NCBI GenBank assembly: GCA_050998515.1
Contig: JBPCQC010000079.1
Coordinates: 6,177 to 70,176 of the forward strand
Length of the DNA stretch: 64,000 bases
Direction of reading: 5' to 3'
From: Verrucomicrobiales bacterium
GTDB taxonomy: Bacteria > Verrucomicrobiota > Verrucomicrobiia > Verrucomicrobiales > V1-33
The notes beneath the pieces were generated by a model. It worked only from the letters and a program-made list of their open reading frames with translations. It had not been told where the DNA came from and did not search any database. The translations under genes and the position numbers were made by a program. Below, in pieces: positions 42,876-48,916 of the stretch; positions within the stretch are counted from its first letter, which is position 1, and every line of letters begins with the position of its first letter.

Positions 42876-43781
42876 TTACCTGCTTCCTCGCTTTTCCCTG
42901 CGGCGGAAAAAGCCATGCAAGGCCGCCTGGTAGTCTTCACCGGCCCGGACGTCGATTTTGTCTATCGAGAGTGATTTGAAGGCGCGGTCGAGGTTTTCCT
43001 GCCACGCGGTGCGCAAAGCGGTGTAATGGCTGCGCACCCGAGCCTTGGCTGTGTTGACGACGATTTCCTCACCCGTCTCAGGATCGGCCAGGCGCAGCCG
43101 GCCGGCATTGGGCAGGGCCAGCTCGGCCGGGTCGGAGACCTGGATCGCGACCACGTCATGTCGAATGGCCGCCGTCCGCAGCGCCGCCTGAACGTTTTCA
43201 CACTGAAAATCAGAAATGACCAGAACCAGACAACGCCGGCTGGTGTGACGGCTGATGAGATCAAGCGCAGGCTTCGGATCCGTGCCGCGCCCGAGAGCCC
43301 GCGCGTAAAGGATGTCACGCACCATGCGAAGCGTCTGCCGGCGGCTCTTCGCCGGAGGCAGGAACAGCTCGACCTGATCGGAAAAAAGCACCAGTCCGCA
43401 CTTGTCCTGGTTGTAGATCGCGGAAAAAGCAAAGACCGCCGCCACCTCCGCGGCCAGTTCACGCTTCGATTGCTCGAGGCTCCCATAAAGGCCCGAACCG
43501 CTGACATCGACCGCCAGATAAACCGTCAGCTCGCGCTCCTCGACGTACTTGCGGATAAACGGTGTCCCTTGCCTCGCCGTGACGTTCCAGTCAATCGACC
43601 GCACTTCATCGCCGGGCTGGTATTCCCTGAAATCATCGAAGTCGATCCCCTGGCCCTTGAACACCGAATGATATTCCCCGCCCGCCTTCGAGCGCACAAT
43701 GCCGCGCGTGATCAGTTCGATGCGCCGAACCTTTTTGAGGAGTTCGGTGATTGAATCGGGCTCGGGAGATACGGTGGCCAT
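42876..43781 (-). CDS. DUF58 protein (MoxR-associated vWA-like)
   Basis: First ATG at 43781 (track start TTG 43787). DUF58 block (GEYHSVFKGQGIDFDDFREYQPGDEVRSIDWNVTAR). Confidence 0.85.
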   Translation of the reverse strand: MATVSPEPDSITELLKKVRRIELITRGIVRSKAGGEYHSVFKGQGIDFDDFREYQPGDEVRSIDWNVTARQGTPFIRKYVEERELTVYLAVDVSGSGLYGSLEQSKRELAAEVAAVFAFSAIYNQDKCGLVLFSDQVELFLPPAKSRRQTLRMVRDILYARALGRGTDPKPALDLISRHTSRRCLVLVISDFQCENVQAALRTAAIRHDVVAIQVSDPAELALPNAGRLRLADPETGEEIVVNTAKARVRSHYTALRTAWQENLDRAFKSLSIDKIDVRAGEDYQAALHGFFRRREKRGSR

Positions 43782-43924
43782 CGGCAATGCTATGATTGGT
43801 AATTGTTAAATGCCAATATGCTTTGCCTTCTCGGGCGGCTTGAGATGATTTCGCGCACAATTACCACTGAAGAATTGCTAGACAGCACCTCCGTCAATTG
43901 CGACGGGCAAATTCAAGCTTGTAA

Positions 43925-44180
43925 ATGCCATCCGCAGGCTTGCGAACGCCCCATACGAGCCTGCGAATGGCAGAAACAAGTCTGAAATCGCCATCCGCAG
44001 GCTTGCGGACGCCAAATACAAGCTGCGGAGGGCGTATGCAGGCTTGCGGACGCGAAAAACGAACCTGCGGACGACACAAACTGACTCGTCGCCCGCAGAG
44101 ACCCACTCAGGAACCGCAAAAACAGGTTTGCGATTGCCGAAAGCGAGTGTGCAAGCGGGGATGACCTGCTTGCGACTGGT
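43925..44180. repeat. Iteron-like array of a ~16-nt motif GCAGGCTTGCGGACGC (three direct copies plus several inverted/partial copies at irregular spacing)
   Basis: CCATCCGCAGGCTTGCGAACGCC at 43928-43950. CCATCCGCAGGCTTGCGGACGCC at 43991-44013. ATGCAGGCTTGCGGACGCG at 44036-44054. Inverted AGCCTGCGAATGG at 43957-43970. CCTGCGGACGA at 44064-44074. Confidence 0.6.
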
Positions 44181-44337
44181 TACTTCGGCTTTGCCGATCC
44201 CTTTCCTGGGAGGGGTATGCGCTCCCGAACCGTAGTGGCAGGCCGTTGCTTCGCCGTGCCATCTTTAACAAAGCGGCCGTTCACCGCGCTCCGTTCTCCG
44301 ATTCTACTTTGTGGCTTCTTGCTGATGATCTCCTTTC

Positions 44338-44366
44338 TTGGGTGATGTCTCCTCCACTTTATATTG
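44338..44366 (+). promoter_or_regulatory. Candidate sigma70-type promoter for the methyltransferase gene (TTGGGT-17-TATATT)
   Basis: -35 TTGGGT at 44338-44343, 17-nt spacer, -10 TATATT at 44361-44366, 25 nt upstream of ATG 44392. Sequence match only. Confidence 0.35.
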
Positions 44367-44391
44367 GGGCTCGATTCTGATCAAGCACAAC

Positions 44392-46087
44392 ATGCAGGCC
44401 ACTGAGGTCGAAAACTCGCCTTGTCATCGGTGGTCCGAACCCGCACAATTCCGTTTAATGGGAACGCTCTATTACGGCGACAATCTCGATATTCTGCGCC
44501 GCTACATCGAGGACGAGTCGGTCGACCTCGTTTACCTCGATCCGCCGTTCAACTCAGCGCAAAACTACAACGCCTTCTTTCAGGAAAAGGACGGGACCGC
44601 GGCGGCGGCGCAGATCAGCGCTTTCGAGGACACGTGGGAGTGGAATCAGGAGGCCGAGCACGTTTACGGCGAGCTGATTACCCGGGCAGGCAAGGTCCGT
44701 GAGGTGATGGAAGCCTTCATGACCTTTCTCGGTCGCAACGACATGATGGCCTACCTCGTCATGATGGCCCCGCGTCTGGTCGAGCTGCGCCGCGCCCTCA
44801 AGAAAACCGGCTCCCTTTACCTGCACTGCGACCCGACGGCTTCCCATTACCTGAAGCTGCTGCTGGATGCGGTGTTTGGAATTGACGGCTACCGCTCTGA
44901 AATTGTGTGGAAAAGGACGACAACTCACAACGATTCCAAGCGATGGTCCGACAACACCGACACAGTTTTCTTCTATACAAAAAGCAGAGGCAATTCGGAA
45001 TCGTTTACTTGGAACCCGCAGCACGACCAATATAGTGAGGACTACCTCGCCGATAAATATCGTTACGATGATGGCGACGGCCGGGGATCTTACCGGCTCG
45101 ACAACATGACGAGTCCGAACCCAAGGCCGAATATGATGTACGAGTGGAAAGGGCACGCATCACCGGAGAAAGGTTGGCGGTACTCGAAAGAAACAATGGC
45201 GCAGTTAGATGCCGAAGGACGTATCTGGTACCCTTCGAGTAAGGACAAGCGTCCTCAGCTGAAGCGCTACCTCGCGCAAGGCAAAGGTCCTGTCATGGGC
45301 AACCTGTGGACCGACATCAACCCCATCAATTCCCAAGCTCAGGAGCGTCTTGGTTATCCGACCCAAAAGCCCGTAGCCTTGCTCGAGAGGATCATTAAAG
45401 CGAGCTCCGACGAAGGCGACGTAGTGCCTCGATCCCTTCTGCGGGTGTGGTACGACAATTGACGCCGCGGAAAAACTAGGTCGGGATTGGATTGGGATCG
45501 ACATAACCTATCTGGCGATTGCACTGATCAAGAACCGGCTCAAAAGCTCGTACGGCGAGGGCATTCACCTGAAAACGGTGGGAGAGCCGGTCAGTCTCGC
45601 GGATGCGCAGCAGTTGGCGAATGATGACAAATTCCAATTCCAATGGTGGGCGCTGGGGTTGGTAGGCGCGCGCCCGGTGGAGGAAAAGAAAGGCGCCGAT
45701 AAAGGGGTGGACGGCAAGATTTTGTTTAGGGAAACACCCAAAGACCCGAAGTCGCAACAGATCATCTTTTCCGTTAAAGGCGGCGGAGTGAGTGTAAAGG
45801 ACATTCGCGATCTGCGCGGCACCGTCGAGCGAGAGAAGGCGCTCATCGGAGTGCTGGTAACGATGAAGAAGCCGACCAAGGACATGCTATCGGAGGCGGC
45901 CTCGGCTGGTTTTTACGAAAGCACCGTCTGGCAGAAACAGTATCCGAAGCTGCAAATCCACACCGTGGCGGAATTGCTCGATGGCAAGCAGGTCCAGCGC
46001 CCGCCAACCCGGGCGCTGGATGAGACTTTCAAGAACGCGCCGAAGGCACAGAAAAAAGGGGACGAGCAACTGGAGCTACTTCAATGA
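44392..46087 (+). pseudogene. Beta-class N6/N4 DNA methyltransferase fused to a C-terminal Mrr-type PD-(D/E)xK restriction-endonuclease domain, interrupted by a 1-nt frameshift
   Basis: Motif IV DPPF (VDLVYLDPPFN). ...GYPTQKPVALLERIIKASSDEGDVV, then the frame breaks at 45427-45428 (GTGCCTCGAT; one C too many). The +1 frame continues LDPFCGCGTT (motif I) uninterrupted into track ORF 45578..46087, whose product matches Mrr_cat (WALGLVGA...DKGVDGKILF...QQIIFSVKGGGVSVKDIRDLRGTV...GVLVT...). Track pieces: 44338..45462 and 45578..46087. Confidence 0.75.
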
Positions 46088-46542
46088 TCATTGGCGTAAA
46101 TGCGACAAAAGAGGCGATCTTCTTTGCGGAGACGGACACAGCTGGACAAACTTTTTCAATTAAGATCAAACGGTTGGCATTTAACCTGACGGAAACTGAG
46201 GGGCTATTAGATCTGTTCCAAAGCGTCTCCACTCTTCTCTCTGGATATGACCCGGCCAGGTTGACAGCCGTGGCAATATTGCGATGCTGTGGGGGCCAAC
46301 GAGCGTCATCGGTTGAGGCGATCAAAGCTGAAGCCGTCACCGAGTTGGCGATTCGCAAAAAGGCGATCAAGGTCCTCGGTGTGACTCCTCACAGCTTGAA
46401 GAAAGCGTTGCAGTGTGAGGGAGGGCAAAAATGGCGACCACGCGCCAAGCAGCTCTTTAATTCAAACGGTCAACACTCCTATTGGAGTCAAGGCGCGGAT
46501 GGAGCTGTCGCAGCGGCATATAAGGCGAGTCCTCCTCATTGA
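46084..46542 (+). CDS. Hypothetical protein (152 aa), translationally coupled to the flanking genes
   Basis: ATG overlaps the upstream stop (ATGA at 46084-46087) and its stop sits 1 nt before the kinase ATG. No recognisable domain. About 50% GC, below the window background. Confidence 0.5.
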   Translation: MIIGVNATKEAIFFAETDTAGQTFSIKIKRLAFNLTETEGLLDLFQSVSTLLSGYDPARLTAVAILRCCGGQRASSVEAIKAEAVTELAIRKKAIKVLGVTPHSLKKALQCEGGQKWRPRAKQLFNSNGQHSYWSQGADGAVAAAYKASPPH

Positions 46543-46543
46543 G

Positions 46544-47581
46544 ATGTCGTTACCGCGGAAATTTACGAATGTGCGGCAGTTGGGGCCTGGAAAAAACGCT
46601 AAAGTCTTTTCCGCGACGAACAGTTATCTTCAACGAGAGGTCTTTCTAAAAGTTTACCCAATTCCGGCGAGTGATTCATTGTCAGCCCTTAAAGAACCCC
46701 AACTCCTACAGGAGCTTGAGCATCCGAACCTCACGAAAATCTACAGCGCTGACCCTTCCACCGACGATCAAATCCTTTTGGAGATCGAACTGATTGATGG
46801 AGGATCGTTCAAAGACATCATAGACGAAGCCGTCAAAACTGCCACGTGGCCTGCCGTTCACTACTGTCTCGACCTGATTCAAGACGCCGCTGCTGGGTTG
46901 AGCCACCTCCACGCTCACGGTTATGTGCATCGTGATATAAAGCCCGCCAATCTTGTCGTGAAACGCTCACGGGGCCGGCCTCACGGCCTCGTAACCGATC
47001 TTGGCTTTGCAAGCAAACTGAACGATTCCGGGCGAGCATTCGCCAGCCAACACTCGAGGTTGTATCGACCTCCGGAGGTTTGGTCGGGTGCCGGGTATTC
47101 AGTGGCCAGTGACGTGTATCAGCTCGGATTGGTGTTGTTTCAACTTCTCGGCGGCAGCCTAGACCATTCGCTAGCCAACCTGTCAGATAGTGACCTTTTT
47201 ACACGAGTGGCGGCATCGAAATTGGTGGTGGTGGACTCAGTCGGCGCGCACGTTAGCGATTCGTTGCTGCGAGTCATACGGGCATGCATCTGTGGTGAGA
47301 ATCAACGAATCAGCTCGATTAGTGACCTCGTGGTGGGGTTAAACAATGTAAAAGCAAAGCATCCCAATTGGCGCCTCACTTGGGGACCCCATGGATTCCG
47401 CCTTGACCGAAAAGATGCGTCCGGCATGAAGATCAAAGTGGAAGTCAAATCCGCCGGGCATACGCATACCGTGCAGCGCAGCAAAGGCCGGGGCAACTTT
47501 CGGGCGATCGGTGATGCAGGTCAGTTCACGCATCGCAACTTGGGACGCTGCCGCAAATTCCGTCAGTTTATTGAGTTGTAA
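46544..47581 (+). CDS. Hanks-type Ser/Thr protein kinase
   Basis: ATG 46544. Gly-rich loop LGPGKNAKVF, Lys in VFLKVY, catalytic loop HRDIKPANLVV, DLGFA (DFG variant), YRPPEVW (APE-like). About 50% GC. Confidence 0.75.
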   Translation: MSLPRKFTNVRQLGPGKNAKVFSATNSYLQREVFLKVYPIPASDSLSALKEPQLLQELEHPNLTKIYSADPSTDDQILLEIELIDGGSFKDIIDEAVKTATWPAVHYCLDLIQDAAAGLSHLHAHGYVHRDIKPANLVVKRSRGRPHGLVTDLGFASKLNDSGRAFASQHSRLYRPPEVWSGAGYSVASDVYQLGLVLFQLLGGSLDHSLANLSDSDLFTRVAASKLVVVDSVGAHVSDSLLRVIRACICGENQRISSISDLVVGLNNVKAKHPNWRLTWGPHGFRLDRKDASGMKIKVEVKSAGHTHTVQRSKGRGNFRAIGDAGQFTHRNLGRCRKFRQFIEL

Positions 47582-47616
47582 TCCTTTGGCTTGTGCTGCG
47601 GACGGTCGAGGAGAAG

Positions 47617-47849
47617 TCACTGGAGCGGAGTAGCAGCGAGCCGCGCCTTCAAAAAGCGAATCCGGCTTCGCTGAAGCATGACGATTGCAATCAAAGCCAG
47701 CGTAAGCAGGGGCCAGATAATGCAGAATATCCAGATGTTGATCGCTTCGTAAGAGATTCCCAGCAGCCGGGCACCATCGAATAGGATTTCCACGCACCAT
47801 GTAAAGATGGCCTGGGTCAGCGGCGCCGGTTGTATAAGGTCGTGCTCGA

Positions 47850-47853
<4 letters not shown>
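47617..47853 (-). CDS. Possible small two-TM membrane protein, GTG start overlapping the moxR stop (GTGA)
   Basis: 78 codons, hydrophobic (IFTWCVEILF...; IWIFCIIWPLLTLALIAIVML). No ATG start, atypical codons for this genome and ~52% GC, so this may be non-coding. Confidence 0.25.
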
Positions 47854-48839
<986 letters not shown>

Positions 48840-48916
48840 GGGGCGGGAACCTAGGAGAGGATTGCTAAAAAGCAAAAGCGTTGAGCCAAAGCAATCCGCG
48901 GCGTAGAGTGAGGGGC

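What the first reader, a model, noticed from the sequence alone, without database searches (positions are those of the whole stretch)
44392..46087. Single-polypeptide methyltransferase plus Mrr-like endonuclease broken by a one-base insertion at 45427-45428
Reading through GDVV, the frame yields PRSLLRVWYDN* in frame and LDPFCGCGTT (canonical motif I) in the +1 frame. The +1 frame then runs without stops into the Mrr_cat-like domain (track ORF 45578..46087). Removing one C from GTGCCTCGAT restores an approximately 565-aa MTase-REase fusion. This is either a sequencing indel, a genuine inactivating mutation (self-toxicity control) or a switch; the site is CC, not a long homopolymer.
Basis: seen in the sequence. 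Interest (0 to 1): 0.6.

Follow-up and report, generated by a model that had tools for sequence, protein, structure and literature searches.

The report
Frameshifted solitary DNA methyltransferase pseudogene
A DNA methyltransferase gene that normally carries a nuclease-like tail in one protein is broken here by one extra C; this is most likely an ordinary dead copy of a very common gene, sitting in a small acquired block of defence-type genes.

The parts
44458..45462 (+). 5' piece of the broken methyltransferase gene (334 aa, NCBI MGI8603620.1). It carries motif IV DPPF, the central variable (TRD-like) region and the region up to just before motif I. The last 12 codons (PRSLLRVWYDN*) are out-of-frame read-through.
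45426..45428 (+). Site of the one-base insertion (GCC). Removing any one of these three bases restores GDVVLDPFCGCGTT. Homologue DNA has GTGCTCGATCC here.
45425..46087 (+). 3' piece in the +1 frame (220 codons, no stop). It carries motif I DPFCGCGTT, the last methyltransferase helices, a linker and the Mrr/MspJI-like PD-(D/E)xK-fold domain. Invariant residues, in 564-aa numbering, are E430, D436, D440 and K462, with S460 in the SVK motif.
45578..46087 (+). The only ORF with a start codon (GTG) in the +1 frame. It is 169 aa and NCBI annotates it as 'restriction endonuclease' (MGI8603621.1). It lacks motif I.
46084..46542 (+). Neighbouring 152-aa RuvC-fold protein. Its ATG overlaps the TGA of the methyltransferase gene (ATGA). 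It forms a conserved pair with the kinase in other contigs.
46544..47581 (+). Neighbouring Ser/Thr protein kinase, 345 aa (MGI8603623.1). Its closest defence-library models are mad6 and PD-T4-6.
43788..47849 (.). A 4062-nt lower-GC block that separates the DUF58 gene (42876..43787, minus strand) from moxR (47850..48875, minus strand). These two genes abut in relatives. The block holds all the features listed above.

Best explanation
This is a recently inactivated copy (a pseudogene) of a widespread, solitary, single-chain gene. The N-terminal 390 aa or so form a beta-class, Type III Mod-like amino-methyltransferase. Its DPPF motif IV predicts N6-adenine specificity. A flexible linker joins it to a C-terminal Mrr/MspJI-like PD-(D/E)xK-fold domain. 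One extra C after codon V345 shifts the frame just before motif I (the AdoMet-binding loop). The 334-aa product therefore lacks motifs I-III and cannot methylate. The downstream piece has no start codon before GTG 45578, so motif I is not translated from any ORF. The gene lies in a 4-kb horizontally acquired block, together with a RuvC-fold protein and a Ser/Thr kinase, inserted between moxR and its DUF58 partner. Shown: the frameshift, the family, the fold, intact relatives, reproduction in a second assembly and the insertion context. Inferred: that the mutation is real in the cells, that it is recent, and that losing the gene is tolerated because it has no separate restriction partner.
Against: Read pile-ups could not be inspected. 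If the Logan run is the same read set that produced the MAG, a systematic sequencing error is not excluded. The 220 codons after the shift have no stop and keep every family-invariant residue. That fits a very recent mutation, but it fits an intact gene equally well. No closer relative than 74% identity exists in the collections, so the age of the lesion cannot be estimated.
Confidence: 0.8

Rival explanations
1. Sequencing or assembly indel: the gene is intact in the organism, and the extra C is an error in the MAG consensus.
For: The source is a metagenome-assembled genome. The downstream frame is perfectly preserved, with no stop in 220 codons and all invariant residues kept. Another MAG-derived family member, P0024, also looks frameshifted.
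Against: A contig from a different assembly pipeline (Logan, SRR33880242) is 100% identical over 4106 nt, including the extra C. The site is CC in a non-repetitive context, not a homopolymer. No other broken gene was found among five candidate pairs in 64 kb.
Confidence: 0.12
2. A stable split arrangement with functional pieces: the 169-aa Mrr-like domain, translated from GTG 45578 and translationally coupled (ATGA) to the RuvC-fold gene and the kinase, works as a free-standing component of a small defence module, while the methyltransferase part is dispensable.
For: GTG 45578 opens an ORF that holds the whole nuclease-like domain, and NCBI calls it a gene. There is a 4-nt ATGA overlap with the next gene. 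The neighbouring kinase matches defence-kinase models mad6 and PD-T4-6.
Against: No stand-alone family of this domain was found. Every short representative examined begins inside the last methyltransferase helix (IDITxLAxxLIKxRL), so these are fragments of fusions. The RuvC-fold plus kinase pair occurs in other contigs without this methyltransferase or nuclease domain. Family members are solitary.
Confidence: 0.05
3. A programmed +1 ribosomal frameshift, or a phase-variable switch, that restores the full-length enzyme in a fraction of translations or cells.
For: The two frames overlap by 38 nt (45425-45462), so a +1 shift within that window would give a full-length product. CGA follows the CCU codon and could be a slow codon; this is inference only.
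Against: There is no homopolymer or simple repeat at the site. tRNA re-pairing from CCU to CUC is poor, and a shift there would give P in place of L346, which is invariant in alignment A1. The 99 nt downstream fold no better than shuffled sequence (z = 0.08). There is no Rfam match. The frameshift was seen in none of the aligned or listed relatives.
Confidence: 0.03

Closest known systems
Beta-class N6-adenine/N4-cytosine DNA methyltransferases (Pfam N6_N4_Mtase PF01555), especially Type III Mod subunits (EcoP15I Mod, PDB 4zcf; Mod 6k0w) and M.MboIIA, M.RsrI and CcrM
   Same: The motif order is IV (DPPF) ... variable middle region ... motif I (FCGCG), typical of the beta class. The Pfam match is 7e-42, and the best sequence matches among solved structures are Mod subunits.
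   Different: No Res partner lies next to the gene in the window or in the homologue loci examined. The protein carries an extra C-terminal PD-(D/E)xK-fold domain that the solved methyltransferases lack. In the window, motif I is out of frame.
Mrr_cat / MspJI-type nuclease domains (AF1548 1y88, AspBHI 4oc8, MspJI 4f0p, Type ISP LlaBIII 4xqk)
   Different: The Q/E position is serine in the window and in most relatives, and Q only in one subclade. The domain is fused behind a methyltransferase rather than to an SRA, winged-helix or helicase module. Activity is unknown.
NA-iREase1 (PF22722, NACHT-associated inactive restriction endonuclease 1)
   Same: It is the best-scoring Pfam model for the C-terminal domain (42.3 bits against a cut-off of 27).
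   Different: No NACHT protein is involved. Here the domain is fused to a methyltransferase.
Type IIG / IIL / IIC single-chain restriction-modification enzymes (for example MmeI and BpuSI; recalled from general knowledge, not tested here)
   Same: A methyltransferase and a PD-(D/E)xK-fold domain share one polypeptide, and the gene is solitary.
   Different: From my own knowledge, the characterised enzymes have an N-terminal nuclease and a gamma-class N6_Mtase. Here the order is reversed and the methyltransferase is beta class. No cleavage activity is known for this family.
Methyltransferase of Streptomyces phage RedBear (gp49, QYW07895.1) and related Likavirus phages
   Same: It is a full-length relative (100% coverage, 54% identity) that keeps motif I and the E...D...D...SVK residues of the C-terminal domain.
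   Different: It is intact, phage-borne, lies next to a serine integrase and is annotated only as methyltransferase.

Membership tests
N6_N4_Mtase (PF01555), beta-class amino-methyltransferase | Pfam profile score above the gathering cut-off | tested here: met
   144.3 bits against 26.7, residues 44-373 of the repaired protein
N6_N4_Mtase (PF01555), beta-class amino-methyltransferase | Catalytic motif IV (D/S)PP(Y/F) placed N-terminal to motif I | tested here: met
   DPPF at residues 50-53, invariant in the alignment
N6_N4_Mtase (PF01555), beta-class amino-methyltransferase | AdoMet-binding motif I (FxGxG) in the same reading frame as motif IV | tested here: not met
   DPFCGCGTT lies in the +1 frame and no start codon precedes it. 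It is in frame in 118 of the 120 listed homologues.
Mrr_cat (PF04471) / PD-(D/E)xK nucleases | Restriction-endonuclease-like alpha/beta fold | tested here: met
   [not shown]
Mrr_cat (PF04471) / PD-(D/E)xK nucleases | Pfam score above the gathering cut-off | tested here: met
   24.1 bits against 21, a marginal pass
Mrr_cat (PF04471) / PD-(D/E)xK nucleases | Complete catalytic constellation D ... (D/E/Q)xK | tested here: inconclusive
   D436, D440 and K462 are invariant and E430 is invariant upstream, but the (E/Q) position is S in the window and most relatives, and Q in one subclade
Mrr_cat (PF04471) / PD-(D/E)xK nucleases | DNA cleavage activity | not testable with these tools
   This needs purified protein from an intact homologue
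NA-iREase1 (PF22722) | Pfam score above the gathering cut-off | tested here: met
   42.3 bits against 27
NA-iREase1 (PF22722) | Association with a NACHT NTPase | tested here: not met
   The domain is fused to a methyltransferase. No NACHT protein appears in the window block or in the homologue loci.
Type III restriction-modification (Mod + Res) | An adjacent res gene (helicase-nuclease) | tested here: not met
   None in the window or next to P0004, P0011 or P0017
Single-chain RM enzyme (Type IIG/IIC) | Methyltransferase and nuclease domains in one translated polypeptide | tested here: not met
   Met in the family but not in the window, where the frameshift separates them
Single-chain RM enzyme (Type IIG/IIC) | Restriction of unmodified DNA | not testable with these tools
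   No characterised member was found in three literature searches
Programmed frameshift / phase-variable methyltransferase | A slippery sequence or simple-sequence repeat at the shift site | tested here: not met
   The site is GTGCCTCGAT. No tandem repeat lies there.
Programmed frameshift / phase-variable methyltransferase | Frameshift conserved in relatives | tested here: not met
   Relatives are in one frame

The most novel reading that the evidence does not exclude
The family as a whole may be an uncharacterised kind of self-contained restriction-modification or DNA-surveillance enzyme. It combines a Mod-like beta-class methyltransferase with a C-terminal Mrr/MspJI-like domain. It has thousands of solitary copies in soil bacteria, on plasmids and in temperate Streptomyces phages. 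Its architecture is reversed relative to known Type IIG/IIL enzymes, and the invariant E-D-D-K constellation would be catalytic. On this reading the window shows one disarmed copy. A lesser variant is that the freed 169-aa nuclease domain now works with the RuvC-fold protein and the kinase downstream.
Probability: 0.2. Interest if true: 0.5.

Novelty: new member of a known kind. Interest (0 to 1): 0.2.

Why it matters
The practical consequence is for annotation. The public record lists the two pieces as separate, apparently functional genes ('site-specific DNA-methyltransferase' and 'restriction endonuclease'). They are halves of one broken gene, so no methylation or restriction should be inferred for this organism from them. 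The methyltransferase-plus-Mrr-like family itself is very large and solitary, is shared with phages, and has no characterised member that I could find. Testing an intact member would show whether the nuclease-like tail cuts DNA or only binds it.

Tried and rejected
1. Programmed frameshift or switch: rejected. There is no repeat or slippery site, no structure downstream (z = 0.08), no Rfam hit, and the frameshift is not conserved in relatives.

2. Stand-alone family of the C-terminal domain: the 169-aa ORF was searched against 1.84 billion representatives (3131 hits). The 20 short hits inspected all start inside the last methyltransferase helix, so they are fragments.

3. A three-gene system of methyltransferase, RuvC-fold protein and kinase: rejected as a conserved unit. 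The RuvC-fold plus kinase pair recurs in other contigs without the methyltransferase, and the methyltransferase recurs without the pair.

4. A generally error-prone assembly: five other overlapping same-strand ORF pairs were scanned with Pfam, and none is a split gene.

5. Flanking direct repeats or att sites for the 4-kb block: none found. No integrase or transposase lies in the block.

6. Literature on the fusion: searches for NA-iREase1 and for Mrr_cat with N6_N4_Mtase or methyltransferase found no characterised member. A search on MADS was swamped by plant MADS-box papers.

7. A closer relative or an empty site for this species: the genome-contig scan with MoxR returned relatives of 70% identity or less. 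The protein clusters of the window's genes have no other member except the Logan contig.

Full report
**Observation**

The +1 frame is open from 45425 to the stop at 46087. It begins CLDPFCGCGTTIDAAEKLGRDWIGIDITYLA....

Deleting each base in turn showed that removing any one of 45426-45428 (G, C or C) gives GDVVLDPFCGCGTT and a single ORF running to 46087. At the DNA level, four homologues read GTG/GTC CTC/CTG GAY CC. The closest, L001, reads GTGCTCGATCC where the window reads GTGCCTCGATCC.

- The start supported by all homologues and used by NCBI is ATG 44458 (MGTLYYGDN). The repaired protein is then 542 aa, not about 565.
- The inserted base cannot be pinned down more closely than 45426-45428.

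**What the gene is**

The repaired protein matches Pfam N6_N4_Mtase at 7e-42 (residues 44-373, spanning the frameshift). It also matches NA-iREase1 at 8e-11 (residues 430-530) and Mrr_cat at 4e-5 (24.1 bits against a cut-off of 21). PADLOC places the N-terminal part among Type II and Type III methyltransferases. The best sequence matches among solved structures are Type III Mod subunits (6k0w, EcoP15I Mod), M.MboIIA, M.RsrI and CcrM.

Motif IV is DPPF, near the N-terminus. Motif I (FCGCG) follows a variable middle region. This is the beta-class order, and from general knowledge of amino-methyltransferases DPPF points to N6-adenine.

A search of 5.8 billion protein clusters returned the maximum of 8000 scored candidates, all at E ≤ 1e-10. 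The 120 listed hits are almost all 530-620 aa and carry both domains. The best is 74% identical. Motif I is in frame in 118 of the 120.

The window protein aligns colinearly with these homologues and keeps every invariant residue on both sides of the shift.

**The C-terminal domain**

1y88 is classified with Mrr_cat (PMC3424549). MspJI-type domains are described as Mrr-like with a PD-QxK site (PMC12707154). 'Mrr-like' is therefore correct at the level of fold and family.

Whether the domain is an active endonuclease is not settled. E430, D436, D440 and K462 are invariant. However, the (E/Q) position of (E/Q)xK is serine in the window and in most relatives, and Q only in one subclade. Pfam's best-scoring model for the domain is one named for inactive REases.

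Full-length relatives (100% coverage, 47-54% identity) are carried by temperate Streptomyces phages, next to a serine integrase. Others sit on rhizobial and actinobacterial plasmids. All are annotated simply as methyltransferases.

The neighbours of three homologues on long contigs are unrelated to each other and include no Res or REase gene. The family is therefore solitary. I found no characterised member in the literature.

**Real mutation or error?**

Read pile-ups are not available, but one independent check was possible. The kinase two genes downstream has a cluster-mate from a Logan assembly of run SRR33880242. That 4106-nt contig (L093) is 100% identical to window 44328-48433, with no gaps, and includes GTGCCTCGATCC. 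A different assembly pipeline thus reproduces the extra C.

Two further points argue against an error:
- The site is a CC dinucleotide in non-repetitive sequence.
- Five other candidate split-ORF pairs in the 64-kb window are ordinary neighbouring genes.

I cannot tell whether the Logan run is the MAG's own read set, so a systematic read error is not fully excluded. I put it at about 0.12.

**Consequences of the shift**

In the +1 frame, the first ATG, GTG or TTG after 45425 is GTG 45578. Motif I therefore cannot be part of any separately translated C-terminal product, and the 334-aa N-terminal product lacks motifs I-III. Neither piece can be a methyltransferase.

NCBI annotates the two pieces as independent genes: MGI8603620.1 'site-specific DNA-methyltransferase' and MGI8603621.1 'restriction endonuclease'. 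That annotation is misleading.

A stable two-gene arrangement is not supported. A full HMMER search with the 169-aa ORF found 3131 representatives. The 20 short ones I read all begin inside the last methyltransferase helix (IDITxLAxxLIKxRL...), so they are fragments of fusions.

A programmed +1 shift or a phase switch is also unsupported:
- No repeat or slippery site is present.
- No downstream structure is present (z = 0.08).
- There is no Rfam match.
- Relatives do not share the frameshift.
- A shift at CCU would replace the invariant L346 with proline.

The absence of any stop or invariant-site change in the 220 downstream codons suggests that the lesion is recent.

**Context**

The source is a Verrucomicrobiales MAG. 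The methyltransferase is followed, with an ATGA overlap, by a 152-aa protein and then by a 345-aa Ser/Thr kinase starting at ATG 46544.

The kinase's best defence-library matches are mad6 and PD-T4-6, well below the equivalog cut-offs.

The RuvC-fold plus kinase pair recurs at 53-60% identity in other metagenomic contigs, without this methyltransferase. The adjacency here therefore reflects an islet of defence-type genes, not a conserved three-gene system.

All three genes lie on the + strand between moxR (47850..48875, minus strand) and the DUF58 gene (42876..43787, minus strand) of a Bat/MoxR operon. In 68 related loci where both genes were found, DUF58 follows moxR with a median gap of 6 nt and a maximum of 2134 nt. 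In the window the gap is 4062 nt. GC is 0.51-0.565 inside the block against 0.59-0.62 outside. The block is therefore an insertion into an otherwise tightly coupled gene pair. No flanking repeats or recombinase were found.

**Verdict**

The best explanation, at about 0.8, is a genuine and recent inactivating mutation in a dispensable, horizontally acquired, solitary methyltransferase gene. 'MTase-REase fusion' in the sense of a working restriction enzyme, and 'self-toxicity control', are not shown.

This is a new (dead) member of a known, annotated but experimentally uncharacterised family, so interest is low. The more interesting open question is at the family level: what the conserved Mrr-like tail does in thousands of solitary and phage-borne methyltransferases.

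Noticed in passing
[not shown]
   Followed up: partly
window 43788-47849; L012-L091: The moxR-DUF58 junction, which is normally contiguous (median gap 6 nt in 68 loci), is split here by a 4062-nt lower-GC block on the opposite strand. This should interrupt co-transcription of the Bat/MoxR operon. No att-like repeats or recombinase were found.
   Followed up: partly
L048 8957-11122: Another Verrucomicrobiota MAG has a different 2.1-kb insertion at the same moxR|DUF58 junction. It carries a ParE/RelE-like small ORF and a near-duplicate of the first 27 codons of DUF58 (MIPREILKKIRPIEIRTNRIVTETLAG) at its edge. This suggests that the junction is a recurrent insertion site.
   Followed up: partly
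window 43899-44140: Degenerate direct repeats lie in the intergenic region upstream of the methyltransferase. There are 62-63-nt units with 20-21-nt sub-periodicity, and the core GCAGGCTTGCGGACGC occurs three times here with at most one mismatch (2 of 100 shuffles gave as many matches window-wide at 3 mismatches). There is no Rfam match. Their function is unknown.
   Followed up: no
window 47617-47853 (-): A 78-aa hydrophobic ORF overlaps the moxR stop codon by 4 nt. It is also called as a gene in the Logan contig. tblastn found no match downstream of moxR in any of the 68 related loci. It may be part of the inserted block or spurious.
   Followed up: no
P0024 (Chthoniobacteraceae MAG, 482 aa); P0153 (203 aa): Other family members also look damaged. 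P0024 diverges into unrelated sequence inside the nuclease-like domain, which looks like a frameshift. P0153 joins the first 25 or so methyltransferase residues directly to the nuclease-like domain, which looks like an internal deletion.
   Followed up: no
alignment A1 columns 170-300 and 401-454: P0017 is about 80% identical to the window at both ends but has a different middle segment, which suggests a swapped target-recognition region. Several relatives have low-complexity inserts of up to about 50 aa between the methyltransferase and the nuclease-like domain, which suggests a flexible linker.
   Followed up: no
L093 (Logan SRR33880242), equal to window 44328-48433: The independently assembled contig stops at 44328, just upstream of the methyltransferase start and next to a 19-nt tandem repeat at 44316-44353. 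At the other end it stops inside moxR at 48433. These ends may mark graph branch points caused by strain variation or repeats.
   Followed up: no
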